Notes: generated from the letters alone by a model not told the origin. Counted from the stretch's first letter, positions 5,711 to 48,589 are shown. The stretch is DNA of 64,000 nucleotides from Planctomycetota bacterium (GCA_024274785.1 JAJSAM010000024.1:27880-91879); one strand, 5' to 3'. Program-made: numbers and translations.

Positions 5711-6462
5711 TCACGACCGCAGTTGCGCTGCTGGTTTCGTTCGCCTTCGTCCTTTCCGGCTGCCAGAACGGTTCGCCTCCGAACGGTAAGGGGGGGAGCC
5801 AGCCGGCCGGAAGCGCCGGAGTCAAGGCGCCGGCACCGGGAGCGAAGTTCCTGGGGGGGCAGCTTGTGCTCGAGTCCATCTCGGTTCCCGCCTCGGCCGG
5901 CCAGCCGGTCACCGTGGTCCTGAAGAACGTCGCCGGGCAGGCGCTCGAAGGGCTGACCATTCAGATGATCTTTCTGAGTCCATCCACGGACGGGATGTCC
6001 GAGTTCGACAGCGAGAAAGTCATCGACGAGGTCAACAAGCTCTACAAGAACGAGAGCCACACCCTCTCCGTGAACCGGGGCGGTCGCGGCAAGCTCCTGG
6101 AAGTCAGGCTGAACGTGAGTTCCGGAGAGACCCGGTTCATGCCGACCACGACCCGGGAGGGCGGTGTTCCGGGCAGCCGGCTGCTCGGCGGACTCCTCGA
6201 GGTCGTCGGAGTGGATAACCGGCTGACCTTCGAACCTCCGTCCATCTCCTTCACCGTGGAGAACGTCTCGAACAAGGTGGTCGAGGGCTTCGGGTTCCAG
6301 GTTGTTCTGCGGCAGAGGAACGGGAAGCTCGTGGAGACTCGCTGGCAGGAGGTGGTCGAGAGCCTGCCTCCCGGGGGGAAGCTCACGTTGAGCGCGGATC
6401 TCTCCGGCAATGACGTCGGAGCCGCCGAGTCCGTTCTCAAGATCAGGTGGGAAGACATCTAG
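5692..6462 (+). CDS. Lipoprotein, hypothetical
   Basis: ATG at 5692, overlapping the upstream gene by 19 nt. MRTRILITTAVALLVSFAFVLSGC is a lipobox signal peptide. About 230 aa of predicted beta-rich periplasmic domain follow. Confidence 0.6.
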   Translation: MRTRILITTAVALLVSFAFVLSGCQNGSPPNGKGGSQPAGSAGVKAPAPGAKFLGGQLVLESISVPASAGQPVTVVLKNVAGQALEGLTIQMIFLSPSTDGMSEFDSEKVIDEVNKLYKNESHTLSVNRGGRGKLLEVRLNVSSGETRFMPTTTREGGVPGSRLLGGLLEVVGVDNRLTFEPPSISFTVENVSNKVVEGFGFQVVLRQRNGKLVETRWQEVVESLPPGGKLTLSADLSGNDVGAAESVLKIRWEDI

Positions 6463-6466
6463 CCAG

Positions 6467-10459: not shown

Positions 10460-10461
10460 CG

Positions 10462-13883: not shown

Positions 13884-13922
13884 GCAAAGTGCGATCGACG
13901 GATCCTTGTCTGGCGTAAAGAG

Positions 13923-13951
13923 TTGACCTCGACGATGGCATGGGATAGCTT
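13923..13951 (+). promoter_or_regulatory. Sigma70-type promoter candidate (TTGACC-N17-TAGCTT)
   Basis: ttgacc at 13923-13928 and tagctt at 13946-13951, about 60 nt upstream of the ATG at 14014. Confidence 0.35.
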
Positions 13952-14013
13952 CGGGCGATCCGAAGGAAGTCCCAGGGCCATGGAGTGATGGCTTGAACCC
14001 ATTGGAGGCACCC

Positions 14014-14886
14014 ATGTTCAGGCGTCTCGCATACGTTCCGATGATTCTCTGCCTGATAGCGACTTTCGCCTCTGCGGCGGAACTGACCATGGGGGGTGAA
14101 GGCGCCCTACTGAACGGGGCCGCGGTGGAAACGTATCCCGCGGCGCTCGCGGAAGGGGATCGGGTCGAAGGGCCGGCGACGGTGACGACGACTCTCGGTG
14201 ACACCATCAAGGTGGCGAAGGGCTCCGTTCTGGAGGTCAAGCCGGTGGATGGTGAGACGGAGTTGTTCTTCCTGCTGAAGGGTTTCGCCCGTGGCGAGAT
14301 CGGCAGCAAGACGAGCATCGCCCTCCCCGCGGGATGGCTCACCGGGCCCGCCGACGATACGGCAGCGTTCTACGTCGAGACCATCGACCCAGACCGCGGC
14401 TTCTTCCAGGTCAATGAGGGCAAGGGGCTGGTTTCCTACGGCATCTACCATGTTTTTCTCGGGGCGCGGCAGGCGGTCGAACTCGGCAAGAAGGGCGATC
14501 CCGACACGTTGGAGTTCTATACCCACCAGAGCAACCCCGGCACCGTGAAGATCGTGGCGGCCACCAGGGGGAAACTGGAGCTGACGCTTTCCGTCCCGAA
14601 GTCGACCCGCGGCATGCTCGAGCAGGTCGAGGGTGACGAATGGACGAAGGTTTCGAGCGATGCCTCCTCCTGGCAGGGTGGCAAGATCGGCATCGCCACG
14701 ATGGTGGACGGCGCGCCCGGCCAGGCCGGTTCGCTCGGTCCCGGCACGTTCGCCCGGATCAACAATGGCACCGGTGAAATCGAGTTCGGTTTCGTGGAAA
14801 TCGACTTTGCCATCGTCGAGAGAGCGATCTCTCTGACGAGCGAATTCCAGCTTCTCGCGGTCAGCAACTTCTTCGGCCTCGAGTAA
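14014..14886 (+). CDS. Secreted hypothetical protein
   Basis: ATG at 14014 is preceded by GGAGG. Signal peptide MFRRLAYVPMILCLIATFASA. No recognised catalytic motifs. Confidence 0.55.
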   Translation: MFRRLAYVPMILCLIATFASAAELTMGGEGALLNGAAVETYPAALAEGDRVEGPATVTTTLGDTIKVAKGSVLEVKPVDGETELFFLLKGFARGEIGSKTSIALPAGWLTGPADDTAAFYVETIDPDRGFFQVNEGKGLVSYGIYHVFLGARQAVELGKKGDPDTLEFYTHQSNPGTVKIVAATRGKLELTLSVPKSTRGMLEQVEGDEWTKVSSDASSWQGGKIGIATMVDGAPGQAGSLGPGTFARINNGTGEIEFGFVEIDFAIVERAISLTSEFQLLAVSNFFGLE

Positions 14887-14982
14887 CGATACAGTCCCGC
14901 AGGGCGTCGGACCGGGCTATTGGATACCGGGTTCGGTACTGAGGATGACCGTCAAGGTCCAATGAAGGAGACGGGGGTATTT

Positions 14983-16428
14983 ATGGGGCGGATGCTTGCG
15001 GTTATTACAGCGGCGGTCCTCATGCTGGGCCTCGCCACACCTGCCATGGCGCAGGACGGTGCGGCCCATGCCATCGATGACTTCGTCCAGCGCGGCTCGG
15101 ACTTCTTCGACAACAACCTGATCTTCGGCAAGATCCGGATCAGTCCCCGCCTGGACCAGAGGTTCATCTACGACGACAACATCTGGATGAACGATGCCAG
15201 CGAACCGCAGACCCGCGGTCGCCAGTGGGACTTCATCAGCAGCACCAAGGTCGGACTCTCTTTCGACCTCCCGGTGAACGAGGAGTACACGAAGTTCTTC
15301 AAGCGCTCGAAGGTGCGCCTGCTGACCTACGAAGCCGACTTCATGTGGTACTTCCGGAATACGGAAGTCAGCGACATCAACCATGATATCGGCACGTCCC
15401 TCTTCGCGTTCCTGTCCGACCTGACCAAAGCCAGCGGCGGCAAGCCGTACGGCTTCTTCTTCGACGTCAATGCGAACTATCGCATCATCATGAACCCGCT
15501 CGACCTGATTCAGCGTCCGCTCGGCCCGGCCCTGACCGGGGATCCGACGGGGATCCCGCTTGCTATCGGTGAGACCGATCGGTTGCAGTGGAAGCAGGCC
15601 AACGCCGAGGCCTATGTCGGCTGGAGAGGCAACTGGCTGGACATCCGGGCGGGGTACGAGTTCGAGTGGTACGAGTTCAAGGACGATTTCTACTCGCAGG
15701 CGGACCACCGCGAGCACACCTTCGTCGGTGAGATCGGGTGGAACCCCTGGTTCCACCCGCAGGGACGGATCTTCCTGAAGGGCAAGTACTCCGACCTTGA
15801 ATTCAAGACCGGGCTGCTGAACGGCGCCAACATCTGGGATGTACGCCTCGGTTTCGAGGGGCCGCTCTTCTCCAAGCGCTTCCGCTGGTATCTCGATGGC
15901 GGCGTCAAGGACTGGGAGAACCAGGCCGACGGTGGGTTCGTCTTCCGGAATGCCCAGGGTATCCCCGAGTTCCGGTCGAACCCCGACGACAGCGACTACA
16001 GCGGATTCGTCGGCAAGGGCCGCGTGGCCTTTACGCCCTGGCAGCAGCGCAAGACGATGTTCCAGCTCGAGGTCGCCCGGGACGTCAACTGGTCGGCGAT
16101 CGCGAACTATCGCGAAGACACCTATGTCATGCTGACGATCTTCGATGAGCTGATCCCGAAGAAGCTCGACTTCGACTTCGTCATCTCCTACAGCAAGCAC
16201 GACCCGTCGGATGGGCCCTACCGGCACCTGTTCGAGGTCGGCGCGGGTTTGACCTATCACCTGGTGCCCCAGGTGGACCTGACGATGCGCTATCTTTTCC
16301 GGAACCAGAGAAGCTTCGACGAGGTATCCGTCACCTTTGTCGGCCCGAATGGCGGCACCACGGATCTTGAAACCAACTCGAAGTTTCACCAGAACATCTT
16401 CTCCGTCGGCTTCGTGGTCTGGTGGTGA
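14983..16428 (+). CDS. Outer-membrane beta-barrel protein, candidate OM conduit for polysaccharide export
   Basis: ATG at 14983 is preceded by AAGGAG. Signal peptide ...LGLATPAMA. Alternating amphipathic beta strands. The C-terminus ...FSVGFVVWW has an aromatic OMP signature. Sits immediately upstream of the Wza-like gene. Confidence 0.6.
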   Translation: MGRMLAVITAAVLMLGLATPAMAQDGAAHAIDDFVQRGSDFFDNNLIFGKIRISPRLDQRFIYDDNIWMNDASEPQTRGRQWDFISSTKVGLSFDLPVNEEYTKFFKRSKVRLLTYEADFMWYFRNTEVSDINHDIGTSLFAFLSDLTKASGGKPYGFFFDVNANYRIIMNPLDLIQRPLGPALTGDPTGIPLAIGETDRLQWKQANAEAYVGWRGNWLDIRAGYEFEWYEFKDDFYSQADHREHTFVGEIGWNPWFHPQGRIFLKGKYSDLEFKTGLLNGANIWDVRLGFEGPLFSKRFRWYLDGGVKDWENQADGGFVFRNAQGIPEFRSNPDDSDYSGFVGKGRVAFTPWQQRKTMFQLEVARDVNWSAIANYREDTYVMLTIFDELIPKKLDFDFVISYSKHDPSDGPYRHLFEVGAGLTYHLVPQVDLTMRYLFRNQRSFDEVSVTFVGPNGGTTDLETNSKFHQNIFSVGFVVWW

Positions 16429-32150: not shown

Positions 32151-33011
32151 TTAATCGTGACGGGCATGGTGTGAGCCTCCACTCTGACGCCAGCGCGTTT
32201 CCGCGAGCCGGCGGTTCTCGGGTGTACTTACGTCGAACCAGATCCCCTGGAAGAAGAACGCGCCCAGTTCGCCCTGCGCCGCGAGCCGGGGGAAGACATC
32301 GGTCTCGAGCCGGGAAGGCTTGTCCTGGTCGATGAGGTCGAGGACCTCGGGCTCCAGGAGGTAAACACCGGTATTCACGATGCTGATGCCGCCGCTGCGG
32401 GAGCGATGGATGAACTCGAGGATCCGATTGCCCTCCAGCACCACCTTTCCGTAGTTTTTCTCCACCTGGCGCGGCTTGACCGCGATGGTGGCCAGGGTGT
32501 TTTCACCGCGGTGGAACCGGATGAAGCCGCTGATGTCGATGTCCGTCAGCACATCGGCGTTAACGGTCAGGAAGGGGCCGGATTCGAGGTGCTTCCGGGC
32601 TCGCCGGACCGCGCCGGCCGTACCCAGCGGGCGGGTCTCCATGACGTATTCGATTTCGACGCCCAGGTGGTGGCCGTCTCCGAGGTGTCCCCTGACCGCA
32701 TCTCCGCGCTTGCCCGCCAGGACGACGAAGCGCCTGATTCCATGGCTGGCGAGGTGCTCCACGGTCCGGGAGATGAGCGGCTTGCCGCCGATGGGAACGA
32801 GGCAGGGGATGTCGCCGCGCCGGGCCGGGCCGCCAGCGAGCAGGACCGCGGTCTCCACCTCCGGAACGATGGACTGCCGCAGGAGCATTTCGATGGCGTG
32901 GGAGCGATTGCGTACGGTCTGCTTGTCGATGAGCCGGTCGACCTTTGCAAGCAGATCGTGGGAAAGGGTGATCGTCAGCCGCGCCTTGCTCCTCATGGCT
33001 GCCCGGGCCAT
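32151..33011 (-). CDS. Ribbon-helix-helix (CopG-like) DNA-binding domain fused to a sugar-1-phosphate nucleotidyltransferase domain
   Basis: N-terminal RLTITLSHDLLAKVDRLIDKQTVRNRSHAIEMLLRQ is RHH. This is followed by the NTP_transferase fold (VLLAGGPARRGD..., GTAGAVR, GIWFDVSTPE). The G-loop is divergent (GGPARR instead of GGxGTRL). Confidence 0.7.
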   Translation of the reverse strand: MARAAMRSKARLTITLSHDLLAKVDRLIDKQTVRNRSHAIEMLLRQSIVPEVETAVLLAGGPARRGDIPCLVPIGGKPLISRTVEHLASHGIRRFVVLAGKRGDAVRGHLGDGHHLGVEIEYVMETRPLGTAGAVRRARKHLESGPFLTVNADVLTDIDISGFIRFHRGENTLATIAVKPRQVEKNYGKVVLEGNRILEFIHRSRSGGISIVNTGVYLLEPEVLDLIDQDKPSRLETDVFPRLAAQGELGAFFFQGIWFDVSTPENRRLAETRWRQSGGSHHARHD

Positions 33012-33188: not shown

Positions 33189-35072
33189 ATGGTTGACCGG
33201 ATCGAGAAGCTGGAGCGGCAAGTGGCCGAATTGGCTTCCGAAGTCGCGGCGCTCAAGGCCAACCTCTGCTCCGGATCCCGGGTGGCGGATCCGAAGGAAA
33301 GGGCCGGCGCGGTATGCAATGCGGCCGAACCGGCCGGTGGCTCTTCTGAAGGCTGGGCCATCAGCAGAGACTTCGAGCGCCTGGTTGCCGAGCATGGCCT
33401 GGTCATCCTGGCCGGTATCGCCAGCCTCGTCCTCGCGGTGGCGGTGGTCCTGCGCCAGGCGACGATCAACTCGGACCTGCCGGTCGCATTCGGAGCGGCG
33501 CTCGGCCTGGCCTACTGCACTCTCCTGATGGCGATCTCCTTCCTTCGCTACCGCAAGGGGGCGGGTCTGCAGGGAGACGTCTTCCTCGTTCTGGCCACCG
33601 CCATCCTGAACGCGATCCTGGTCGAGGTCACCCTTCGGCCGGATGGATTCACCCGAACGGTCTCCTATGCGGTGCTGGCGACGGCCCTGGTGATCCTGGC
33701 GGTCATCTCGCTGCGGAACGGCCGCGCGGTGCCGTTTACCGCCTGCGTGCTGGCCGCACCCATCGCCGGCGCCGCGATCGGTGGGCGGCCTTTTCAGCAC
33801 CCGCTCTTCGCGACGATCCTCGGGATGTCTCTGCTCCTCTCGTGGGTGGGAAGCATTCTCCGGGGGTTCGGGCGAATCCGGTGGTTCACCGGGTTCCTGA
33901 CCCTCTCGTATGTGTTCACGCTCGGTGCACTGGCAAAAACCGCGCTGCGCCCGGACATGGCCCAGCACGCGCTGGCTCGCCCGGTGCCGGCGCTTTCGGT
34001 GCTGGCCGGCCTTCTCCTTATTCTGCTTCTGCCGGCGGTCGTCGCCTCTCTCAAGCGCCACCGCAGTCTCGATGCATTCGAGGTGACGACGGCGGTTGCG
34101 GGGCCGCTCGCGGTGTTGGTCGCGGGGACCGGGATCCTCCTGGCACTGCCTTCCGGGGCGCGCGTGGCCGGCCTCGCCTGCCTCGGCCTCGGAATACTCT
34201 TTTATGTGACCGCTGCCATCGGCTTTATCCGTCACGGCGCGGAGAGCCGCAGCTTCTACGTTCTCAGCATCAACGCCCTCGTCTACGTCCTCGCGGGCTT
34301 CGCGTTTCTGACGGGCGGGGGGGTGGCGTACGGCGTCACGGTGCAGGGAGCGGCCCTGGTGCTCTCGATCTTCGCGCTGAAACTGGGGAAACGGACGCTG
34401 TCCGTGCAGGCCTTCCTGCTCACCTGCCTGGCGTTTCTGGTGAATGCGAAGACCGGCATCGACCTGTCCGCCCCGGGTGACGGTCTCGCCACACGCATCG
34501 GACCCGCGGTGTGGCTGATCATTTCCGGGGTGATGGCCACTTTCGTCTTCGTTTTCCAGCGTGCCTTCCGCTGGGACAGCCAGAGATTCAGCTTGAAGCG
34601 GCTGAACGCTCACGCCACCGCCCTGGTGGTCGCTCTCGCCATCGGCCAGATCCAACTGCTCTCGGGGTTGCTCCCCCTGATCTACGATCTGGTGATCGGG
34701 ATCGTCGGCACCGCTGATCCCGAGACGCTGTCGGACGTGTGGCACACGATCTACACCCTGCTTCTGGTCTCCGGTTCGCTCATGACGCTGGGGCTCGCGG
34801 TGCGGTTGCGCCTCGGTGGGGCGACGGTACTGGCCGCCGTGGTCATGGTTGCCGCGGGGCTCAAGCTCTTCCTGCACGACGCCATGACCGTGCACTGGAC
34901 GCTGCTGGCGTTCTCGGCCAGTGCATTCGGACTCTCCCTGATCGCCGCGTCGCTCCTCTACCGGAGATTCCGGGGGATCAGCGCTTCGCAGCGCCCGCGG
35001 CCGACGCCTTCTCTTCCCGGCCGAAGAACGGAAACGCCCGATCGAACTGCCGAAGCAGGAGGAAGGGGATGA
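33189..35072 (+). CDS. Polytopic membrane protein with an N-terminal coiled coil (DUF2339-like)
   Basis: ATG is preceded by GGGGAGGG. N-terminal coiled coil IEKLERQVAELASEVAALKANL, followed by at least 14 predicted TM helices. The 3' end overlaps the convergent nrfD-like gene by about 95 nt. Confidence 0.55.
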   Translation: MVDRIEKLERQVAELASEVAALKANLCSGSRVADPKERAGAVCNAAEPAGGSSEGWAISRDFERLVAEHGLVILAGIASLVLAVAVVLRQATINSDLPVAFGAALGLAYCTLLMAISFLRYRKGAGLQGDVFLVLATAILNAILVEVTLRPDGFTRTVSYAVLATALVILAVISLRNGRAVPFTACVLAAPIAGAAIGGRPFQHPLFATILGMSLLLSWVGSILRGFGRIRWFTGFLTLSYVFTLGALAKTALRPDMAQHALARPVPALSVLAGLLLILLLPAVVASLKRHRSLDAFEVTTAVAGPLAVLVAGTGILLALPSGARVAGLACLGLGILFYVTAAIGFIRHGAESRSFYVLSINALVYVLAGFAFLTGGGVAYGVTVQGAALVLSIFALKLGKRTLSVQAFLLTCLAFLVNAKTGIDLSAPGDGLATRIGPAVWLIISGVMATFVFVFQRAFRWDSQRFSLKRLNAHATALVVALAIGQIQLLSGLLPLIYDLVIGIVGTADPETLSDVWHTIYTLLLVSGSLMTLGLAVRLRLGGATVLAAVVMVAAGLKLFLHDAMTVHWTLLAFSASAFGLSLIAASLLYRRFRGISASQRPRPTPSLPGRRTETPDRTAEAGGRG

Positions 35073-36150
35073 TGATGATGATCCCGGCGACCAGGATCCC
35101 CTCCTTATCGAAGAGTCCCGGCAGATAGCTGGTGAACCCCCGGTAGCTCTTGGAGAGCAACTGCCCGCCGATGACGACGTTCCACCGCATCAACAGCACC
35201 TGGATCAGGAGCAGCGCGGCGGAGATGAACAGGAACGAGTTGGCCAGCCTTTGGGGGAGGCGCAGCAGGGTCCGGGCCATGAGCAACAGGAACGGGCCGA
35301 GAGAGCAGATGAAGAGCTGGAACACCACGTAGGAAACGAAGAGCTTTCCACCGATGAGTTCCTTCAGAACCGCCCATCGCTCCGTCTGCTCGTAGGCCAC
35401 CGAGAGGACTTCCATCAGTTCGAGGGAGACCGCTCCGATCATGAAGGCCCACAGGAGCCGGCCGAGGGCGTTCAGGGTGCGCTGGCTGACCGGAAGGCGC
35501 TGCCGCCAGGTCACAAACTGGTACAGGAACGTCAGCACCGCGATGCCGGAGACGATCGCCGAAAAGATGAAGATGATGAACATGAGCGGTGTGGACCACC
35601 ATGGGTTCGCCTTGATCGAGCCGAAGAGAAAGCCCACGTAGCCGTGCAGGATGAGCGCGACGGGAATGCCGACGCCGGCGAGCCCCCGCACCATCATCCG
35701 ATCGATGGCATCGGTCCGCTCGTTCCGGTCCGTGGATCCGAGGAGCGACAGCTTGAGCAGCTTCCTCTTGAGCCCGGCGGCCTCCCTCCACTTCTCGACC
35801 ATCATTCCGCGAAAGTGGAACCAGATCTCGAAGAACACGATCACCGCGTAGATCAGGTAGACAAATCCGAATCCGCTCATGGCCGACCTGAAATTCGGCG
35901 TGATCATGATGTTCATCGCCCGCTCCGGACGGCCGAGGTGGTTCAGGAGAGGCAGGGGAGCGAACAGCAGAAAGACGAATGCGGACACGAGAGAGAAGGT
36001 GGCAATCGGCTTGAGCGCCTGAATCCCGAAAAGGTGATAAAGCGAAGAGACGATGAACGCCCCGGCCACGAGACCGGTGATGTAGGGATAAAGGACGATC
36101 ATCACCGTCCAGGTGACGTGGACTTCATTTGGAAAGACGAAGCCCTCCAT
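34978..36150 (-). CDS. NrfD/PsrC-family polytopic membrane quinol-interacting subunit
   Basis: MEGFVFPNEVHVTWTVMIVLYPYITGLVAG is the typical NrfD N-terminus. About 8-10 TM helices. ATGA overlap with the upstream FeS gene. Confidence 0.8.
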   Translation of the reverse strand: MEGFVFPNEVHVTWTVMIVLYPYITGLVAGAFIVSSLYHLFGIQALKPIATFSLVSAFVFLLFAPLPLLNHLGRPERAMNIMITPNFRSAMSGFGFVYLIYAVIVFFEIWFHFRGMMVEKWREAAGLKRKLLKLSLLGSTDRNERTDAIDRMMVRGLAGVGIPVALILHGYVGFLFGSIKANPWWSTPLMFIIFIFSAIVSGIAVLTFLYQFVTWRQRLPVSQRTLNALGRLLWAFMIGAVSLELMEVLSVAYEQTERWAVLKELIGGKLFVSYVVFQLFICSLGPFLLLMARTLLRLPQRLANSFLFISAALLLIQVLLMRWNVVIGGQLLSKSYRGFTSYLPGLFDKEGILVAGIIIIIPFLLLRQFDRAFPFFGREEKASAAGAAKR

Positions 36151-36917
36151 CACTTCACCTCCAGGTCGAGGCCCAGGTAGTAGCACTTCGGATCGGTGCC
36201 CATTTCCGGTTTCAGCAGGCCGTAACGGCGTTGGTCGAGCACCCGCCGGAGCGGGCTGTCCGGGGCTCGCAGGTCACCGCAGATGCGGGCCTGCCTCGGA
36301 CAGGCGGTGGCGCAGGCGGTCGTCAGGTCCCGGTGGAGGCGGTGGTAGCAGAGGGTGCACTTGTCCGCGGTCCCGATGTCGTGGTCGATGTAGCGGCAGC
36401 CGTAAGGACACGCCTGCACGCAGTAGCCGCAGCCCACGCAGCGGCTGCGATCGATCAGGACCACACCGTCCGGCGAGTGGAACGAGGCTCCGACCGGGCA
36501 GACCTGGGTGCAGGCGGACGCGCGGCAGTGGTTACAGAGCTTGGGTACGAAGAAGCCCTTGGCAAGGCGCTGTTTCTCGCACTGATCCGTTTTGAAACTC
36601 TCGATGGCGCCCTGCGGCGAGTCGACGTGGACCTCGTGATCCTTGTCGATCTCGTAGCGCTCCACCCAGGTTCGATAGAAACTGTCGGGGACGTCGTTTT
36701 CCGCGGAACAGGCGCGCACGCAGGATCCGCAGCCGATGCAACGGGTGGTGTCCACGAGGAAGCCCCACTCGAGTTTCGAGAGATCCTGCATGCTCCTCAG
36801 TTCGGGCTTCTCCCCGGGGGCTCCGAAAGCGGTCAGGGTGCCCACGAAGGCCCCCGTGGCTCCTGCGAGGGCCAACTGGATGAACCGCCGTCGGTTCAGG
36901 TCGGTGTTGTCTCCCAT
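36150..36917 (-). CDS. 4Fe-4S ferredoxin-type iron-sulfur subunit (NrfC/PsrB/HybA-like) with a Tat signal
   Basis: ATG at 36917 after GGGGAGG. Twin-arginine motif NRRRFIQLALAGATG. Four Cys clusters (CIGCGSCVRAC, CNHCRASACTQVCP, CVGCGYCVQACP, CTLCYHR...ACATACP). Confidence 0.85.
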   Translation of the reverse strand: MGDNTDLNRRRFIQLALAGATGAFVGTLTAFGAPGEKPELRSMQDLSKLEWGFLVDTTRCIGCGSCVRACSAENDVPDSFYRTWVERYEIDKDHEVHVDSPQGAIESFKTDQCEKQRLAKGFFVPKLCNHCRASACTQVCPVGASFHSPDGVVLIDRSRCVGCGYCVQACPYGCRYIDHDIGTADKCTLCYHRLHRDLTTACATACPRQARICGDLRAPDSPLRRVLDQRRYGLLKPEMGTDPKCYYLGLDLEVK

Positions 36918-36919
36918 GT

Positions 36920-37885
36920 TCACCTCCCCAGGAGCTTCCTGGCGTGGACTTCCTTCAGGTGGCACTTCAGGCAGGCCCGCGGATCGGCCTCCAGTTCCAC
37001 GGGGTCGAGGTCGAGCAGTTCGGCAAACTCGTCGAGGTGGATTTTTGAGTCGATCGCCGGGACCTGCTCCGTGTCCTTGAAGCTCTTCCGCTCGTGGCAG
37101 AGCAGGCAGAAACGGCGATTTCCGTTCTTGAAGATCCTTCCCGCCACCTCGTTCTCGCGATGAAAGAAGTGGCAGGCCGTGCAGTCCATGAAGTTGTGCC
37201 GGCGGCCGGCGAAGTCGCCGACGATCTCCTGGTGACAGTCCGCGCAGGCGAAGATCACGGGGTGGTCGGGTGCTTCATGATGGCTCTTCTGAGGGCGTTT
37301 CTCGTGGCAGGTGACACATTCGTAGATCACCGGGTGCGTCCGGGCCTCCGCCACCCTCGTCAGGAGGAACACCGGTTCGTGCGGATCATGGCACTCGATG
37401 CACCGCGTTTTCGGGTCCGTCACCTTGAGGAATTCGTAGTGTGCGACGGGGTCTATCTGCGGGAAGTCGGCCGGGCGTGAGTTCAGGCGGCGATGGCAGA
37501 AGAGGCAGCCTTCGAGTGTGTACTCTTTCGGCATCAGGCGGGCGGGATCATCCTCCGCGGGCGGCCCCTCCCGATGAGCCCGCACATGCTCGGCGCCGGG
37601 GCCGTGGCAGTCCTCGCACTGCACATCGAAGTGGATGTCCTTCTGGTGAGTCTGGAGAATGCCGGCATGGCACTCTCCGCAGGTCTCCCGGCCCTGATGC
37701 AGGGGTTCCCGCGAGATGATGTCCTCGAGCACGGCCCGTTGATACTCACCGCCATCCCCGTATCCGTCAGGGCGCAAGACGGCCTGAATCACCAGTCCGA
37801 GCACCGTTGCAATTGCCAGGAGGATGACGACTCGAGTTACGTGGGCGTGGTCGTTGCGGTTGTTCCCGGCGGAAGATGCCCACAT
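36920..37885 (-). CDS. Membrane-anchored multiheme cytochrome c (nine CXXCH motifs)
   Basis: ATG at 37885 after AAGGAG; the GTG at 37906 is less likely. TM anchor VVILLAIATVLGLVIQAVL. CXXCH motifs: CGECH, CEDCH, CLFCH, CIECH, CVTCH, CADCH, CTACH, CLLCH, CLKCH. Confidence 0.85.
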   Translation of the reverse strand: MWASSAGNNRNDHAHVTRVVILLAIATVLGLVIQAVLRPDGYGDGGEYQRAVLEDIISREPLHQGRETCGECHAGILQTHQKDIHFDVQCEDCHGPGAEHVRAHREGPPAEDDPARLMPKEYTLEGCLFCHRRLNSRPADFPQIDPVAHYEFLKVTDPKTRCIECHDPHEPVFLLTRVAEARTHPVIYECVTCHEKRPQKSHHEAPDHPVIFACADCHQEIVGDFAGRRHNFMDCTACHFFHRENEVAGRIFKNGNRRFCLLCHERKSFKDTEQVPAIDSKIHLDEFAELLDLDPVELEADPRACLKCHLKEVHARKLLGR

Positions 37886-41259: not shown

Positions 41260-43380
<2,121 letters not shown>

Positions 43381-43389
43381 GAAACTCCC

Positions 43390-45891
43390 ATGATTCGAAC
43401 TCCAGCCCTGATGGCCTGCCTGGTGCTCACCGTGGTGGCCTGCGACGCCGGCGTCGCCCCGCCCGCGCCGCCGTCGCCGGCCGTCGCATTTTCGCCCGAC
43501 CTGATTCGTACGAAAGAGTGGGAGATCTATCACCAGTGGGCCGGTCGCATCGCCGAGGTCGTCGCCGAGGTCGTCGATGAAGACGGTCAACCGTACGCCG
43601 GGGCGACCGTCTCCGTGATCATCCTTCCCCGGATGGAGGTTCTTCCGCCTCTGGTGATCGCCGTTCAAGTCAGCGACGAGAAGGGCGAGGTCCGCTTCGA
43701 GGATGTCCCCGGGAATGCCTTCCTCCGGATGGAGGCGGATGGGTTCGCGGGTGGCATGTTGGACCTGCAGTTCGCGATGAATCCGGACTTCGGATCACCG
43801 AAGATGCCCTTGCGCCGGGGCTCAGAGGTTTCGGGGCGGGTTCTCCTTCCGGATGGGACACCGGCCCCCGGCGTTCGGGTGATCGGCATGAGTTCGGTTC
43901 GCGACTGGTACGAGCTGGCGACGGCCGATGAGGATGGGCGGTATCGGTTGTACCCGGTTCCCGCGGGACAGATCATGCTGATGGCCATCCCCGGTGGGCC
44001 GATCGGTCAGTTGCCGCCGTTCGATGTCCCCACGGGCCTTGACGTCACCAGAGACTTGTCGGTCCGTGCGCTCTCGCCCATTCACGGGCGCGTGCTCGAT
44101 GCGAACACGGGAAAGCCGGTGGCCGGTGCGATCGCGCGGTCCTTTGTCGATCGGGATGTGCTCGTGGTGGCCGATGATGAGGGACGGTTCACCCTCGAAA
44201 ACGTCTACGGGCGGATGATCGACATCCTCGCTCCGGGCTATGCGGAACGCTCCGTTCCCGTCGATGCGATGCGGGCGGATGCCATCGATGTCGAGGTGAA
44301 GCTCGCCCCCGGTGTAACGGCCCGGGGGGTGGTGGTCGACGAAGAGGGCGCTCCGCGCGCCGGCGCGAGGGTCTTCGCGGTGGTGGATGTCGAGGGCGTC
44401 GGTCGCTATGTGCTTGGGCCGTTGACGGATGAGCTGGGACGGTTTGTCTGGAGTTGGATCGAACCCGCCCGGACCGGCGGGAAGATCGTCTTCGGCGCGG
44501 AGGGGGCGGGTCTGCTGCCGGTAGTCGGCTCGATCCATCCGCTCGTGCCGGGGATTTCGATCGACGACATTGTCCTGACCCTTCCGGAACCGTCCCGGCT
44601 TCGCTTTCGGTTGATCGATGAGCAGGGGGAACCCCTCGTCGATGCCGTCTGCCTGGCTGAGCCCGATCTGGAGGCCGTGCCGTCCGGGGTCAGGCCGATG
44701 GTCAACACCGGGGGGACGGCGGTCACCGCTGAAGATGGGAGCGCGCTGATGGCGGGGCTCCGGCGGGGCCCCCACTTCCTGAGCATCCTGCTCGGTCATC
44801 GCATCCCCTTCTCCACCGGGATCAATGTCGGCCCGGGGATGAACGACCTCGGCGACATCACGGTGCCGGACCTCCTGGCGATCGCGGGGCAGGTGCTCAG
44901 CACCGGCGGCGAGTTGCCGGATATGGTCAAGGCTTTCCTGTCGATCCCCGGTGAGAGCTTCCAGGCGGAGGTTCGTATCGGCAAGGATGGGAAGTTCCGG
45001 ATTTCCGGGCTGGCGGATCGGCAGTACGTGCTGCAACTGGCGGCGTCGGACCACCGGACCGTGACGAAGCGGTATGCCGCCGGCACCGAAGACATCCAGG
45101 TCCGGTTGACCCTCCTCGGGAAGCTCTCCGTTACCCCGCTGCTCGAAGGAGACGACCAGCCCGAGGGGCGGATCGAGATGGTGAGGGTGGGCGGTGCGGA
45201 AGCGCCGGTGATGCGGTTCTTCAACCGCCCGGGAGAGGCTGTCATGGCCAATCGGATGACGCCTGGAGACTGGTTCGTCCGCGTGAAGGCCGGTGAGTAC
45301 TATGGAGCGGCGAAGGTCACCGTCATCGGGGGGAAGTCGGAATCCGTTCAGGTTCAGCTTCACCCCGGCGGTACGATCCACGGGTTCGTCAGGAAGCCCG
45401 ACGGCACGCCCGCAAAGCGAATTGGAGTGCAGTACGACGGCGGCGAGGCCTGGGGCGTACACGGTGTTCCCGTGGGCGACGACGGGCAGTATCGATTGGT
45501 GGGCGTCCCCGCCGGCGAGGTCGAGTTGTTGACCCACCCGCGAGGGTTCGTTCCGTTTCGCAAGACGATCGTGGTGATCAACGGAGAGGAAACCCGGCAG
45601 GACATCGAACTCGATGCCGGGGGACGGTTCGAATTGCGCGTCACTGATCCGGACGGAAAACCCCTCTCCGCCGTGAAGGTCGGCCTGGCCGATGACCAGG
45701 GTGTGCCGGCCCGCTACTGGATCAGTGGGCAGGATCGAGCCCGGACCGATGAGGACGGCGTGCTGACCCTGACGGGAGTTCCACCGGGCAGCTATCGATT
45801 GAGCCTGCACATCAAGGACCAGCTTTGGGAATCGAGACAGGTGGACATTCCGGCGGGGGAGAGCAAGCTGGTCATCGAAATCGATCGGTAG
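43390..45891 (+). CDS. Large lipoprotein with about 8 tandem CarboxypepD_reg-like beta-sandwich domains
   Basis: Signal/lipobox LMACLVLTVVAC. Recurring about 80-aa modules with G(R/F)V.D..G.P..GA.V signatures (e.g. VSGRVLLPDGTPAPGVRV, IHGRVLDANTGKPVAGA, IHGFVRKPDGTPAKRIGV). Confidence 0.6.
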   Translation: MIRTPALMACLVLTVVACDAGVAPPAPPSPAVAFSPDLIRTKEWEIYHQWAGRIAEVVAEVVDEDGQPYAGATVSVIILPRMEVLPPLVIAVQVSDEKGEVRFEDVPGNAFLRMEADGFAGGMLDLQFAMNPDFGSPKMPLRRGSEVSGRVLLPDGTPAPGVRVIGMSSVRDWYELATADEDGRYRLYPVPAGQIMLMAIPGGPIGQLPPFDVPTGLDVTRDLSVRALSPIHGRVLDANTGKPVAGAIARSFVDRDVLVVADDEGRFTLENVYGRMIDILAPGYAERSVPVDAMRADAIDVEVKLAPGVTARGVVVDEEGAPRAGARVFAVVDVEGVGRYVLGPLTDELGRFVWSWIEPARTGGKIVFGAEGAGLLPVVGSIHPLVPGISIDDIVLTLPEPSRLRFRLIDEQGEPLVDAVCLAEPDLEAVPSGVRPMVNTGGTAVTAEDGSALMAGLRRGPHFLSILLGHRIPFSTGINVGPGMNDLGDITVPDLLAIAGQVLSTGGELPDMVKAFLSIPGESFQAEVRIGKDGKFRISGLADRQYVLQLAASDHRTVTKRYAAGTEDIQVRLTLLGKLSVTPLLEGDDQPEGRIEMVRVGGAEAPVMRFFNRPGEAVMANRMTPGDWFVRVKAGEYYGAAKVTVIGGKSESVQVQLHPGGTIHGFVRKPDGTPAKRIGVQYDGGEAWGVHGVPVGDDGQYRLVGVPAGEVELLTHPRGFVPFRKTIVVINGEETRQDIELDAGGRFELRVTDPDGKPLSAVKVGLADDQGVPARYWISGQDRARTDEDGVLTLTGVPPGSYRLSLHIKDQLWESRQVDIPAGESKLVIEIDR

Positions 45892-45943
45892 CTGGATCCG
45901 GCGGTCGAAGTTCCGGTTGGGGTGATATCGAGGAGGCATCGTC

Positions 45944-48589
45944 ATGTTGAACTTGAGGATCGACGATGAAAGCGGCTCGCGCAGTGTGCCGCTGCCCGGG
46001 GGGCCGGTGATCGTGGGGCGAGGCGAGAGTGCCGCGATCCGCCTGACCGAGGTCAAGGCCTCTCGAGAGCACCTCGAAATCCGGCCCCTCGGCAACGGCG
46101 TGGTGGTGCGGGATCTCGGATCGACCAACGGGACGTTCACGGAGGACCGGCGGATCCTGAAGGCCCGGCTCGGCTCCGGGGATGCCTTCCGCATCGGCGA
46201 CACGTGGATCACTCTGGAAGCGGAGCCGTCGCGCTCGGAACGTCAGCCGCGCAAGACTCCCGTCCCCGCGATCCTGCTTACGCTGCTGGCCCCCGCCCTG
46301 GTGCTGCTCATTCTCGGCGAGTTGGGAGTCTCCGCGATCGCATCGGCGCGGCAGGAGAAGATTGACTCAGCGATGCTTCGGATCGAACGCGTCGAGTTCG
46401 AGATGGCCGGTCGGGAGTCCGACCCGGAAAAGGCCGTGGCCGCCCTCGCTCGCTTCACCAGGCGGTATCCGCGCTCCCGGTACGCGCCGGAGGCTGATCG
46501 CCGCCAGGCGGAGATTCTGCCGACGGTGCGGCGGATGCAGATCGCCCGTCAGGAACTCGCCGAACTCGAAGCCGGGACGGAGCGGTACGCTTTCGAGGAA
46601 CTCTACTATCGGTACGAGAAGCTCTACGAGAGCTATCGTAGCCTGCCGGAGATCGCCGCCCGGATCGGCAGCCGGCTGGCCGACCTCGACCGGACGCATC
46701 GCGAGAAACTCGTGGCGATGGTCGATGCGGTTCGCGAAGAGGCGACGTCCCTTGCGGCGAAAGGGGAGTATGGTCGGGCGGTTTCGGCCCTGACCTCCTT
46801 CACCGTTCGGACGCCGGCGGCGGCGGCGAGTTTCAGGGAGGAGATCCGCTCGGCCGAGGCCGAGCTGATGCGGCGCGCGGAGAAGGCCTACCGCGAGTTG
46901 ACCGCCAATGCCGAAGGACTCGCCAGAGATGGCAAGACCGCGGAGGCGGCCGCATTGCTTCGTCGGGAAGCCCCGCGTTTCCTCGGGATCCGTTTCAGCG
47001 CTTTCCTCCGCCTGAGGGCCGATGACTTCGATAGTCGGGGCCGGCCCCGCAGTGCGAGGAAGGAAACCGTCGATCAGCTCACCCTGAGGCGCAGCTACTA
47101 CCTTCTGGCGCAGGAGGCCGAGGAACTCGCCGCCGCCGGGCTCTTCACCCGGGCCGCCGGGAAGTATCGCGGGATCCTCGAGTCGATCGCGCTGCCGGAG
47201 GTCCGGAAGGAGTTCTCGGAGCGTTCGGACGAGCTGTTCCGGCTCTCCGCGCTCATCGCCGACGTTCGCGGGAAGATCAAAGAACGCGGTTCGAAGTTCG
47301 GGTCGGTGAACTTCTCCGGCACGAGGGTCCGGGTCAAGGGCATCGTCGGCGACACGCTGCAACTCGAGATTGCAAAGCAACCGATCACCCGCCAGTGGGA
47401 CTCGCTCGAACCGCGGGAACTGCTGGCTCTGTTCCGCCGGGCACGGCTCACGAAAGAGCAGCGGCTCGATGTGGCGGTGTACTGTTTCGACATGAACCTG
47501 GCCGGGGCGTTCGAGGAGGAGATCCTGGCTGCGCTCGGCGAGGAGAGCCTGAAGGAGAAGGCCGGCCGGCTCTATGCCCACAAGCGGGGTGTTCGTTACC
47601 CCGAGGGCGGCTTTGTGGCCTACAAGGGCCGCATCCTGACCGGGGCGCAGTACGCCGAAGAGGTTCACAAGGAGCAGGTCGTGAAACTCCGGGTTCGCCA
47701 GGTGGAACTCCTGGAGCGGATCCAGGAGCAGCCGGTGATGAAGAAGCTCGCCCGGATGCGCGAACTCCGTCTGAAGCTCGACAAGGCCCGGAAGGTCGCG
47801 CTGGCCCTCATCTTCGACGAGCAGACCTACTTCTACCCCTATCGGGATCGCATGGCCGAGTACATCCCGGTACAGAAAGAGGTGAGCGAGCGCGTCGCCG
47901 TGGTGCGGGACATCTGGGACAACCCACTGAAGATCAGCACGAAGTCGGACCGGTCGGTGTCCTCGCTGCTCGACGAAGCGGACGAGTCCGTCAGGGCCCT
48001 CCGTGATCTGGGCATCGACCCCACCGCCTTCGCCGACCGCGTGGCGGCGATCCGGCTGTACCTGGGGCGGACCTTCACGATCAGGAACTACTTTCACGAC
48101 CAGGCCGAACTGGACCTCTTCACCTACAACGACCACGTTCTGGCTTATAACAAGACCGTCGAGTCGGTGGCGAAGAAGCTCGAGCGGAGACAGGTCGCCG
48201 TCACGAACGCATACCGCCTGATGATGGGACGCAACGCCCTGGTGCTCCACGACCTGCTCGTCCGGACCGCGCGGGGACACAGCGACGAGATGAACAAGCT
48301 CGGCTACTTCAGCCACTTCTCACCGACCGAGGAGCGGCGGACGCCGAACATGCGGGCGAAACTCGAGGGCTACAAGGCCACGGCGCTCTCCGAGAACATC
48401 CACCGCGGCTCCGGAACTCCGGAGGGGGCGCATGACAGTTGGATCCATTCGAGCGGCCACCACCGGAACATCCTGCAGAAGTTCTGGACGGAGATGGGCA
48501 CCGGTCAAGTCGGGAAATTCTGGACGCAGAACTTCGGTCGATCCCGGTTCAAACAGTTCGATCAGGAAGACAAGAACGAGAAGAAGTAG
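45944..48589 (+). CDS. FHA-domain / single-pass TM protein with a long periplasmic helical region and a C-terminal CAP (SCP/PR-1-like) domain
   Basis: AGGAGG RBS. FHA (VIVGRGESAAIRL...GSTNGTFTEDRRI). TM helix VPAILLTLLAPALVLLILGEL. C-terminal HSSGHHRNIL...WTEMGTGQVGKFWTQNFG is CAP-like. Confidence 0.7.
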   Translation: MLNLRIDDESGSRSVPLPGGPVIVGRGESAAIRLTEVKASREHLEIRPLGNGVVVRDLGSTNGTFTEDRRILKARLGSGDAFRIGDTWITLEAEPSRSERQPRKTPVPAILLTLLAPALVLLILGELGVSAIASARQEKIDSAMLRIERVEFEMAGRESDPEKAVAALARFTRRYPRSRYAPEADRRQAEILPTVRRMQIARQELAELEAGTERYAFEELYYRYEKLYESYRSLPEIAARIGSRLADLDRTHREKLVAMVDAVREEATSLAAKGEYGRAVSALTSFTVRTPAAAASFREEIRSAEAELMRRAEKAYRELTANAEGLARDGKTAEAAALLRREAPRFLGIRFSAFLRLRADDFDSRGRPRSARKETVDQLTLRRSYYLLAQEAEELAAAGLFTRAAGKYRGILESIALPEVRKEFSERSDELFRLSALIADVRGKIKERGSKFGSVNFSGTRVRVKGIVGDTLQLEIAKQPITRQWDSLEPRELLALFRRARLTKEQRLDVAVYCFDMNLAGAFEEEILAALGEESLKEKAGRLYAHKRGVRYPEGGFVAYKGRILTGAQYAEEVHKEQVVKLRVRQVELLERIQEQPVMKKLARMRELRLKLDKARKVALALIFDEQTYFYPYRDRMAEYIPVQKEVSERVAVVRDIWDNPLKISTKSDRSVSSLLDEADESVRALRDLGIDPTAFADRVAAIRLYLGRTFTIRNYFHDQAELDLFTYNDHVLAYNKTVESVAKKLERRQVAVTNAYRLMMGRNALVLHDLLVRTARGHSDEMNKLGYFSHFSPTEERRTPNMRAKLEGYKATALSENIHRGSGTPEGAHDSWIHSSGHHRNILQKFWTEMGTGQVGKFWTQNFGRSRFKQFDQEDKNEKK

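What the first reader, a model, noticed from the sequence alone, without database searches (positions are those of the whole stretch)
34978..37885. Three-gene membrane redox module (nonaheme cytochrome c, Tat-dependent 4x[4Fe-4S] protein, NrfD-like) without an adjacent catalytic subunit
The gene order cytochrome / FeS / NrfD has 2-nt and ATGA junctions. There is no NrfA, molybdopterin (PsrA/TtrA-like) or other catalytic partner within the window. The arrangement resembles quinol:electron-acceptor modules such as Qrc or NrfBCD, or a minimal alternative-complex-III-like unit, but with a 9-heme TM-anchored cytochrome. It may serve as a standalone quinol-to-periplasm electron conduit (for example to extracellular acceptors).
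Basis: partly seen in the sequence, partly recalled or inferred. Interest (0 to 1): 0.5.

Follow-up and report, generated by a model that had tools for sequence, protein, structure and literature searches.

The report
Quinol-to-cytochrome electron module, nine hemes
This is a three-gene membrane module that most likely passes electrons between the quinone pool and the periplasm along a nine-heme wire; modules of this kind have been noted in genome papers but this family is uncharacterised, and it keeps the company of a DUF2339 membrane protein that nobody has linked to respiration.

Summary
On the minus strand there is a 321-aa cytochrome c with nine CxxCH motifs and an N-terminal hydrophobic helix. 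It is followed by a 255-aa Tat-exported protein with four [4Fe-4S] cysteine motifs and a 390-aa NrfD-family membrane protein. The three genes are tightly coupled, and no catalytic subunit lies anywhere in the 64 kb.

The module is not an oddity. The NrfD subunit has relatives in at least 551 species-level genomes. In the loci examined, the gene order is anchored multiheme cytochrome, then FeS protein, then NrfD. The cytochrome carries 4, 8, 9, 13 or 15 hemes, and the heme number tracks the NrfD clade. No NrfA-like gene lay within 6 kb of NrfD in any of 83 loci. A molybdoenzyme-like gene did so in only two.

The NrfD subunit fails every curated named family (NrfD, DsrP, QrcD, HmcC, TtrC, HybB). 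Its model is closest to ActC of alternative complex III, and it keeps the quinone-site residues.

The best reading is a menaquinol:multiheme-cytochrome oxidoreductase of the Geobacter Cbc4 / "NrfCD plus cytochrome" kind. The direction of electron flow and the acceptor are inferred.

One new point emerged. The adjacent DUF2339-like protein is a recurrent neighbour of such modules, of both the NrfD type and the Rieske/cytochrome b type.

The parts
36920..37885 (-). Membrane-anchored nonaheme cytochrome c (321 aa). It has an N-terminal helix, then nine CxxCH motifs and nine conserved non-motif histidines.
   Evidence: Sequence. Pfam gives Paired_CXXCH_1, Cytochrome_C7 and Cytochrom_c3_2. All nine motifs, plus H85, H100, H149, H169, H184, H208, H230, H283 and H314, are invariant or nearly invariant in 39 homologues (A3). 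The 4-heme relatives align to residues about 18-180 and the 8-heme relatives to about 23-295.
36150..36917 (-). Tat-exported ferredoxin-like subunit (255 aa) with four [4Fe-4S] cysteine motifs.
   Evidence: RRRF twin-arginine motif and 16 Cys. Fer4_11 gives 8e-21. NCBIfam scores are TtrB 197 bits (cut-off 416), DsrO 174 (200) and NrfC 126 (378), all below cut-off. PDB matches are PsrB 2vpw_B at 7.6e-41 and the ActB C-terminal domain at 1e-21.
34978..36150 (-). NrfD-family integral membrane subunit (390 aa, about 9 TM helices). This is the presumed quinone site.
   Evidence: PF03916 gives 126.5 bits. The AF2 model has pLDDT 80 and pTM 0.79. Foldseek's best matches are ActC 8k9e_C, 6lod_C, 6btm_C and 6f0k_C, with TM-score 0.74-0.76. 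Y21, H71, S89, Y171 and R322 align with E. coli NrfD Tyr21, His74, Ser92, Tyr162 and Arg306 (A6; residue list from PMC8076601).
33189..35072 (+). DUF2339-like polytopic membrane protein (627 aa, N-terminal coiled coil plus about 14-16 TM helices). It is convergent with NrfD and overlaps its 3' end by 95 nt. It is a conserved neighbour and a probable accessory or partner.
   Evidence: 16 hydrophobic segments. BLAST to L007 gives 1e-12. hhalign of A4 against A5 gives 96.6% probability and E 5.7e-10. Members of A5 and metagenome relatives hit PF10101 at 52-78 bits. It is adjacent to the module in 34 of 83 loci.

Best explanation
The three genes encode a periplasm-facing quinol:multiheme-cytochrome c oxidoreductase that has no catalytic site of its own. 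The NrfD-like subunit binds (mena)quinol near the outer face of the membrane. Electrons pass through the four [4Fe-4S] clusters of the Tat-exported subunit into the membrane-anchored cytochrome. Its nine hemes, probably all bis-histidine, act as a wire that hands electrons to other periplasmic redox proteins or to terminal reductases encoded elsewhere.

The DUF2339-like membrane protein next door is most likely an accessory or additional membrane component of such modules.

What is shown: the gene anatomy, the cofactor motifs, the export signals, conservation of quinone-site residues, conservation of the gene order, and the absence of a catalytic neighbour. What is inferred: that the three proteins form one complex, the direction of electron flow (quinol to periplasm), any proton coupling, the acceptor, and the role of DUF2339.
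For: Cofactors and families:
- Cofactor motifs and family assignments.
- Nine invariant CxxCH motifs plus nine conserved extra histidines. This is enough for bis-His ligation of every heme, so no open catalytic heme is expected.

NrfD subunit:
- The model is ActC-like.
- It retains the His/Ser/Tyr quinone-site residues and the conserved Arg of the P-side channel (with PMC8076601).

Distribution and context:
- The family occurs in at least 551 species-level genomes.
- Of 83 distinct loci (the window and 82 others), an FeS-like ORF lay directly upstream of NrfD in 74 of the 85 sequences scanned. A cytochrome with at least 3 CxxCH motifs lay upstream of that in 54. Many loci were cut short.
- Heme number (4, 8, 9, 13 or 15) maps onto the NrfD clades, which indicates co-evolving subunits.
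- In Ignavibacteria, Riflebacteria and Phycisphaerales the module sits beside further large multiheme cytochromes and cytochrome b genes.
- No NrfA-like gene was found within 6 kb of NrfD in any of the 83 loci; a molybdoenzyme-like gene was found in two.

Literature:
- Geobacter Cbc4 has the same gene order and composition, and reduced CbcS transfers electrons to PpcA (bioRxiv 10.1101/2025.04.14.648717).
- The same kind of cluster is called a quinol:acceptor or MK:cytochrome c oxidoreductase in Melioribacter (PMC3534657), MBNT15 (PMC9386147) and Methanoperedenaceae (PMC7327174).
Against: - No member of this particular NrfD clade has been purified or deleted, so complex formation and direction are unproven.
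- Related NrfD complexes (Qrc, Nhc) run the other way, from cytochrome to quinone.
- This window has no partner cytochrome, porin-cytochrome or reductase, so the acceptor is unknown.
- Orthology to Geobacter CbcSTU could not be tested because no sequence was available.
- The cytochrome model was of low confidence (pLDDT 67), so the heme arrangement is not established.
- Neither the window cytochrome nor the 4-heme relatives reach the cut-off of the Pfam NapC/NirT family (PF03264).
Confidence: 0.6

Rival explanations
1. The complex is the same but runs in the opposite direction. It would be a periplasmic-donor:quinone reductase, like QrcABCD or NhcABCD of sulfate reducers. It would take electrons from periplasmic cytochromes, hydrogenases or extracellular donors through the 9-heme wire and reduce menaquinone, possibly electrogenically.
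For: Qrc and Nhc are NrfD-family complexes with a multiheme cytochrome and an FeS subunit that reduce quinone (PMC8076601). The nine-heme count recalls NhcA. The quinone-site residues do not reveal direction.
Against: The subunits are not Qrc- or Nhc-type. QrcD scores 25 bits against 570, QrcC 82 against 400 and HmcB 98 against 420, and HmcC gives no hit. No PDB nine-heme cytochrome matched the cytochrome at E<=1. The cytochrome is membrane-anchored rather than soluble. Relatives sit in clusters resembling metal-reducer electron-export clusters. The closest characterised architecture, Cbc4, is treated as a quinol oxidase.
Confidence: 0.2
2. It is a dedicated quinol dehydrogenase for one specific terminal reductase encoded elsewhere in the genome. 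This would work like NrfBCD feeding NrfA, or SirCD/MccCD feeding octaheme sulfite reductases. It would not be a general or extracellular conduit.
For: E. coli NrfB-NrfC-NrfD has the same order (cytochrome, FeS, NrfD) and feeds NrfA. TIGR03148 (NrfD) is the best-scoring named model for the membrane subunit. Weak NrfB and NrfH hits occur in the cytochrome.
Against: All Nrf models score far below cut-off: NrfD 46.7 against 347.6, NrfC 126.5 against 377.6, NrfB 16.5 against 166.6. No ORF with CxxCK plus at least 4 CxxCH lies within 6 kb in any of 83 loci. Neighbours differ from clade to clade (DUF2339, Rieske/cytochrome b, large multiheme cytochromes), which argues against one fixed partner enzyme.
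Confidence: 0.13
3. The nine-heme cytochrome is itself the catalytic subunit, reducing a soluble substrate at one heme. The module would then be complete as a quinol:substrate reductase.
For: ActA is listed as the 'catalytic' subunit of ACIII, and MccA- and NrfA-type enzymes are multiheme cytochromes (PMC8076601). No other catalytic gene is nearby.
Against: Nine conserved non-motif histidines match nine hemes. There are no CxxCK or CX15CH-type special motifs. There is only a weak, insignificant sequence match (E 0.03) to one octaheme nitrite reductase. The heme number varies from 4 to 15 across orthologous modules, which is typical of wires and not of active sites.
Confidence: 0.05

Closest known systems
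Geobacter sulfurreducens Cbc4 (CbcS-CbcT-CbcU, GSU0068-0070)
   Same: The gene order and composition match: a membrane-anchored multiheme cytochrome c, a protein with four [4Fe-4S] clusters, and a cofactor-less integral membrane subunit. Cbc4 is regarded as a quinol:cytochrome c oxidoreductase feeding periplasmic cytochromes (10.1101/2025.04.14.648717; PMC13591261). The 4-heme members of the family found here have exactly this architecture.
   Different: There are nine hemes instead of four. Sequence orthology is untested. A DUF2339 neighbour is not reported for Cbc4. The host is probably a Planctomycetota-like organism (judged only from the names of the top hits), not a Geobacter.
Alternative complex III core (ActA-ActB-ActC)
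   Same: The gene order is the same (anchored multiheme cytochrome, FeS subunit, NrfD-like quinol subunit). The NrfD model is closest to ActC among solved structures, with TM-score 0.74-0.76. The FeS protein matches the C-terminal domain of ActB.
   Different: It lacks the molybdopterin-like ActB1 domain, ActD, ActE and the second NrfD-like ActF. The cytochrome shows no sequence match to ActA. Identity to ActC is only 17-19%.
E. coli NrfBCD of the NrfABCD nitrite reductase
   Same: Cytochrome-FeS-NrfD order with periplasmic FeS. The quinone-site residues Tyr21, His74, Ser92, Tyr162 and Arg306 align.
   Different: All three subunits score far below the Nrf equivalog cut-offs. There is no NrfA. 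This NrfD has an extra C-terminal helix and a cytoplasmic insertion. NrfB is a pentaheme cytochrome without the long N-terminal anchor region conserved here.
NhcABCD nine-heme cytochrome complex and HmcABC (Desulfovibrio)
   Same: Nine-heme cytochrome plus 4x[4Fe-4S] protein plus NrfD-like subunit (PMC8076601).
   Different: HmcC gives no hit and HmcB scores 98 bits against 420. No PDB nine-heme cytochrome matched at E<=1. There is no NhcD. Here the cytochrome is anchored. Nhc is thought to reduce quinone.
DsrJOP part of DsrMKJOP
   Same: Anchored cytochrome (DsrJ), FeS (DsrO) and NrfD-like (DsrP) in the same order. DsrO is a near-miss for the FeS subunit, 174 bits against a cut-off of 200.
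   Different: DsrP scores only 26 bits against 350. DsrM and DsrK are absent. There are nine hemes against three.
'NrfCD + multiheme cytochrome' clusters described in genome papers (Melioribacter roseus Mros1571-1572; MBNT15; Methanoperedenaceae MK:cytochrome c oxidoreductase groups)
   Same: The inferred role is the same. A Melioribacter MAG (L067) and a Methanoperedens MAG (L083) carry members of the same NrfD family at 44-48% identity.
   Different: Those are the 8-heme and 3-5-heme clades. None has been characterised biochemically. The DUF2339 link is not mentioned in the passages of these papers that I read.

Membership tests
NrfD superfamily (Pfam PF03916) | Score above the Pfam gathering threshold over the full domain | tested here: met
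   126.5 bits against 25.8, covering profile positions 8-310 of 313
NrfD superfamily (quinone-reactive type, not ActF-like) | Conserved TMH2 His/Asp and the conserved Ser at the quinone pocket entry (PMC8076601) | tested here: met
   H71 and S89 are invariant and align with E. coli NrfD His74 and Ser92. Y21, Y171 and R322 align with Tyr21, Tyr162 and Arg306 (A6)
NrfABCD nitrite reductase | NrfD, NrfC and NrfB equivalog scores above NCBIfam cut-offs | tested here: not met
   46.7 against 347.6, 126.5 against 377.6, and 16.5 against 166.6
NrfABCD nitrite reductase | NrfA (CxxCK pentaheme) encoded with the module | tested here: not met
   None in the window. None within 6 kb in 83 loci
NhcABCD / HmcABCDEF | HmcC/NhcC-type membrane subunit and HmcB-type FeS subunit | tested here: not met
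   NF045714 HmcC gives no hit at E<=10. HmcB scores 98.1 against 420
NhcABCD / HmcABCDEF | Soluble cytochrome of the c3-type nine-heme (9Hc) family | tested here: not met
   phmmer against the PDB lists six matches at E<=1, none described as a nine-heme cytochrome. The protein has an N-terminal helix
QrcABCD | QrcD and QrcC equivalogs, plus a molybdopterin-like QrcB | tested here: not met
   25.4 against 570 and 81.6 against 400. No QrcB-like ORF
DsrMKJOP | DsrO and DsrP equivalogs, with DsrM and DsrK present | tested here: not met
   DsrO 174.2 against 200 and DsrP 26 against 350. No DsrMK-like genes appear among the window ORFs that were assigned
Alternative complex III | ActC-like fold of the quinol subunit | tested here: met
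   Foldseek TM-score 0.74-0.76, E 9e-9 to 7e-7 to four ActC chains
Alternative complex III | ActB with a molybdopterin-like domain, plus ActD, ActE and a second NrfD-like ActF | tested here: not met
   The FeS protein is 255 aa and matches only the ActB C-terminal part. There is no second NrfD-like or ActD/E gene nearby
Molybdoenzyme (CISM) reductases Psr/Ttr/Dms/Arr | Mo-bisPGD catalytic subunit encoded with the FeS and NrfD subunits | tested here: not met
   No such ORF in the 64 kb. TtrB scores 197 against 416 and TtrC gives no hit. Among relatives, only L053 and L070 have a molybdoenzyme-like ORF nearby; in L070 it has its own FeS and NrfD genes
Geobacter Cbc4 (CbcSTU) | Architecture: anchored multiheme cytochrome, 4x[4Fe-4S] protein and cofactor-less membrane subunit, in this gene order | tested here: met
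   compared with the description in 10.1101/2025.04.14.648717
Geobacter Cbc4 (CbcSTU) | Sequence orthology to GSU0068-0070 | not testable with these tools
   No Geobacter sequence could be fetched.
NapC/NirT/NrfH cytochromes (PF03264) | Pfam score above threshold | tested here: not met
   No PF03264 hit for the 9-heme protein. Among 4-heme relatives only L021 scores 19.9 against 24.1. TIGR03153 gives 25 bits against 134
DUF2339 (PF10101), for the neighbouring 627-aa protein | Pfam score above threshold | tested here: inconclusive
   The window protein has no hit. Relatives linked by BLAST or hhalign score 33.7-78.4 bits against 33.6

The most novel reading that the evidence does not exclude
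DUF2339-like polytopic proteins are a previously unrecognised dedicated component of quinol:multiheme-cytochrome c electron-export modules. They could be an extra membrane subunit, an ion-conducting partner or an assembly factor. They are shared between two evolutionarily unrelated quinol-oxidising cores, FeS/NrfD and Rieske/cytochrome b. On this reading the window's 'three-gene' module is really a four-component system.
Probability: 0.35. Interest if true: 0.65.

Novelty: new variant of a known kind. Interest (0 to 1): 0.42.

Why it matters
Modules that link the quinone pool to periplasmic multiheme cytochromes are the least understood step of anaerobic and extracellular respiration. Only a few of them (CymA, ImcH, CbcL, CbcBA) have assigned roles.

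This work shows that one FeS/NrfD-based family is very widespread. It occurs in Planctomycetota, Omnitrophota, Ignavibacteria, Acidobacteriota, Bacteroidota and Chloroflexi, and even in Methanoperedens. Its cytochrome grows modularly from 4 to 15 hemes in step with the membrane subunit.

It also gives the DUF2339 family, which has no known function, its first concrete and testable functional context. If DUF2339 is a real partner, models of energy coupling in these complexes would need a new component.

Tried and rejected
- Sequence searches of the NrfD subunit against PDB chains found nothing, whether as a single sequence or as an 11-sequence profile, even at E<=10. Only the fold comparison worked.
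- The AF2 model of the cytochrome was poor (pLDDT 67, pTM 0.40). Its Foldseek hits were insignificant: octaheme nitrite reductase and NrfH at E 0.2-0.9. No heme-arrangement claim is made.
- The afdb50 library was not available. The planned route to named relatives, such as Geobacter CbcU, therefore failed.
- I tested whether DUF2339 is a second, ActF-like NrfD subunit. hhalign of A4 against A2 gave 0.1% probability, so this was rejected.
- A word-indexed search for DUF2339 homologues gave only 2 proteins. No deep alignment or structure prediction was possible for it.
- The promoter and terminator scan of 32.9-38.6 kb gave nothing above the shuffled expectation.
- Look-ups of the window's own proteins returned no accession, name or organism. 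The host is inferred only from the names of the top hits (Planctomycetes/Planctomycetota).
- I considered a nine-heme Nhc complex because of the heme count. It was rejected on HMM scores and the absence of any match to a PDB nine-heme cytochrome.

Full report
**Observation**

The minus strand between 37885 and 34978 carries three tightly packed genes.

- The first gene (37885..36920, 321 aa) has nine CxxCH motifs. It has one N-terminal hydrophobic helix and an AAGGAG ribosome-binding site.
- The second (36917..36150, 255 aa) starts 2 nt after the first stop codon. It has an RRRF twin-arginine motif and sixteen cysteines in four ferredoxin-type motifs.
- The third (36150..34978, 390 aa) starts on the last base of the preceding stop codon. 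It is an NrfD-family protein (PF03916, 126.5 bits).

The nine-heme gene is the only ORF with any CxxCH motif in the 64 kb. The large unassigned ORFs are kinases, a PP2C phosphatase, peptidases, a glycosyltransferase and regulators. The statement that no catalytic partner lies in the window is therefore correct.

**Which named complex is it?**

None of the curated ones.

- The NrfD subunit scores 46.7 bits on the NrfD equivalog (cut-off 347.6), 26 on DsrP (350) and 25 on QrcD (570). It gives no hit on HmcC, TtrC or HybB.
- The FeS subunit is nearest to TtrB (197 against 416) and DsrO (174 against 200). Its best PDB match is PsrB at 7.6e-41.
- The cytochrome has only generic c7/c3/paired-CxxCH hits. 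It gives weak partial hits to DmsE-type decahemes, NrfH and NrfB. No PDB nine-heme cytochrome matched it.
- A profile of the NrfD family finds no PDB chain by sequence.
- The AlphaFold model of the NrfD subunit (pLDDT 80, pTM 0.79) superposes best on ActC of alternative complex III, with TM-score 0.74-0.76 and E 9e-9 to 7e-7. It fits ActF (about 0.6) and the shorter PsrC less well.
- An alignment with E. coli NrfD places invariant Y21, H71, S89, Y171 and R322 on Tyr21, His74, Ser92, Tyr162 and Arg306. Calisto and Pereira (PMC8076601) list these residues for the quinone site and the P-side channel. The subunit therefore looks quinone-reactive.

**Relatives**

The NrfD protein is strikingly conserved. 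It is 63-88% identical to proteins whose source names, where given, include Planctomycetes/Planctomycetota, Omnitrophica and Ignavibacteriae. The cytochrome is 43-80% identical to its homologues.

A scan of one genome per species found at least 551 genomes encoding a relative. I analysed 83 loci in total.

- An FeS-like ORF lay directly upstream of NrfD in 74 of the 85 sequences scanned.
- A cytochrome with at least 3 CxxCH motifs lay upstream of that ORF in 54. Many contigs were cut short.
- The cytochromes carry 4, 8, 9, 13 or 15 hemes.
- The 4-heme proteins align to residues about 18-180 of the window protein (E 1e-15 to 1e-26). The 8-heme proteins align to about 23-295. The 13- and 15-heme proteins add a C-terminal extension.
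- In a neighbour-joining tree of the NrfD subunits, the 9/13/15-heme loci form one clade that contains the window. The 8-heme loci form a second clade and the 4-heme loci form the rest. The subunits therefore co-evolve, as expected for one complex.
- All nine CxxCH motifs and nine further histidines are conserved. This fits an all-bis-His electron wire.

**Is a catalytic subunit hidden in relatives?**

No.

- No ORF with CxxCK plus four or more CxxCH motifs lies within 6 kb of NrfD in any of the 83 loci.
- A Tat-signal, molybdoenzyme-like ORF occurs in only two loci, L053 and L070. In L070 it is followed by its own FeS and NrfD genes.
- In Ignavibacteria, Riflebacteria and a closed Phycisphaerales genome the module lies next to further large multiheme cytochromes and cytochrome b genes.

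**A neighbour that matters**

The 627-aa polytopic protein beside NrfD (33189..35072, plus strand) is convergent with NrfD, and their 3' ends overlap by 95 nt. It has homologues adjacent to the module in 34 of 83 loci.

- The homologue lies directly downstream of NrfD in Acidobacteriota, Bacteroidales and Omnitrophota.
- It lies upstream of the cytochrome in the Melioribacter-type clade.
- It is divergent from the module in a 73%-identical Planctomycetes locus.

The two BLAST clusters of these proteins are homologous over 521 columns (hhalign 96.6% probability, E 5.7e-10). Their members reach the Pfam DUF2339 threshold at 33.7-78 bits. They are unrelated to NrfD.

The closest database relative of the window protein has 39% identity and 96% coverage. 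It sits in a different quinol-oxidising operon: NapC/NirT-type cytochrome, DUF2339-like protein, Rieske protein, cytochrome b, multiheme cytochrome.

I ran a reverse test by scanning metagenomes with the DUF2339 alignment. It gave 27 loci with at least 3.2 kb on both sides.

| Neighbour of the DUF2339-like gene | Loci out of 27 |
|---|---|
| Cytochrome with 4 or more hemes, within 5 kb | 25 |
| Rieske / cytochrome b genes in the locus | 21 |
| This NrfD family in the locus | 11 |

Pfam confirmed representative genes. The loci are phylogenetically related, so the counts are not independent events. A literature search for DUF2339 found nothing on respiration. The Methanoperedenaceae paper mentions a bc1-like cluster 'adjacent to two hypothetical proteins' (PMC7327174).

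**Mechanism**

I commit to a quinol:multiheme-cytochrome c oxidoreductase. Quinol is oxidised at the P-side site of NrfD, and electrons cross four [4Fe-4S] clusters. They leave through the anchored nine-heme chain to periplasmic partners encoded elsewhere.

This is the role proposed for Geobacter Cbc4, which has the same gene order and composition. Reduced CbcS transfers electrons to PpcA (10.1101/2025.04.14.648717). The same role is proposed for the 'NrfCD' clusters of Melioribacter (PMC3534657), MBNT15 (PMC9386147) and Methanoperedenaceae (PMC7327174).

The steps that are shown are anatomy, motifs, export signals, conserved site residues, conserved context and the absence of catalytic neighbours. 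The inferred steps are complex formation, direction, proton coupling, the acceptor and the role of DUF2339. DUF2339 has no conserved His or Cys, so it is unlikely to be a redox protein.

The main rivals are:
- reverse operation, as in Qrc or Nhc;
- a dedicated feeder for one distant reductase;
- a catalytic cytochrome.

**Novelty and verdict**

The kind is known from genomics, so the module is not categorically new. It is not an orphan either. Its NrfD clade is unnamed and uncharacterised, its cytochrome is an elongated nine-heme form, and its link with DUF2339 appears to be new. I rate it a new variant of a known kind, of moderate interest. Its main value is the testable DUF2339 lead.

Noticed in passing
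window 33189-35072 (+); L001 6088-7887; L007 2113-3921; L036 11221-12954; L067 6713-8356: A DUF2339-like protein with 13-16 TM helices is adjacent to the cytochrome-FeS-NrfD module in 34 of 83 loci across several phyla. Its position and orientation vary: downstream, upstream, divergent or convergent.
   Followed up: yes
L086 2993-9436; L095 8001-14138; L123 3232-9620: The same DUF2339-like family also sits inside Rieske / cytochrome b / multiheme-cytochrome operons that have no NrfD. Of 27 well-flanked metagenome loci, 25 have a cytochrome with 4 or more hemes within 5 kb. The family tracks quinol:multiheme modules in general.
   Followed up: yes
loci L003, L009-L012 (13-15 hemes); L022, L033, L042, L067 (8 hemes); L034, L036, L047 (4 hemes): The anchor cytochrome grows C-terminally from 4 to 8, 9 and 13/15 hemes. 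The heme number follows the NrfD clades in a neighbour-joining tree.
   Followed up: yes
window 34978-35072: The 3' ends of the NrfD gene and the convergent DUF2339-like gene overlap by 95 nt. The overlap covers the poorly conserved C-terminal tails of both proteins. No terminator-like site was found there.
   Followed up: partly
L083 (Candidatus Methanoperedens MAG) and L075 (Methanosarcinales MAG): Members of this bacterial NrfD family (43-48% identity) occur in archaeal methanotroph MAGs. In L083, cytochrome ORFs with 3-5 CxxCH motifs lie beside it. This fits the lateral transfer already proposed in PMC7327174.
   Followed up: no
L004/L005 (Phycisphaerales CP070772) 9315-15396: In this closed genome the module is preceded by an Rrf2-family regulator. 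It is followed by a 13-heme cytochrome and a TPR / AhpC-TSA protein, which hints at redox or iron-sulfur-linked regulation.
   Followed up: no
window 32151-33011 (-): A 286-aa protein fuses an N-terminal ribbon-helix-helix (CopG-type) domain to a sugar-nucleotidyltransferase domain. This is an unusual combination.
   Followed up: no
window 6410-12444 and 41260-48589: There is a dense signalling neighbourhood. It includes a Ser/Thr kinase with TPR repeats and a zinc ribbon, a PP2C phosphatase, an ORF I read by eye as an FHA-type sigma-54 activator (not scanned against any library), and an FHA-CAP protein. No link to the redox module was seen.
   Followed up: no
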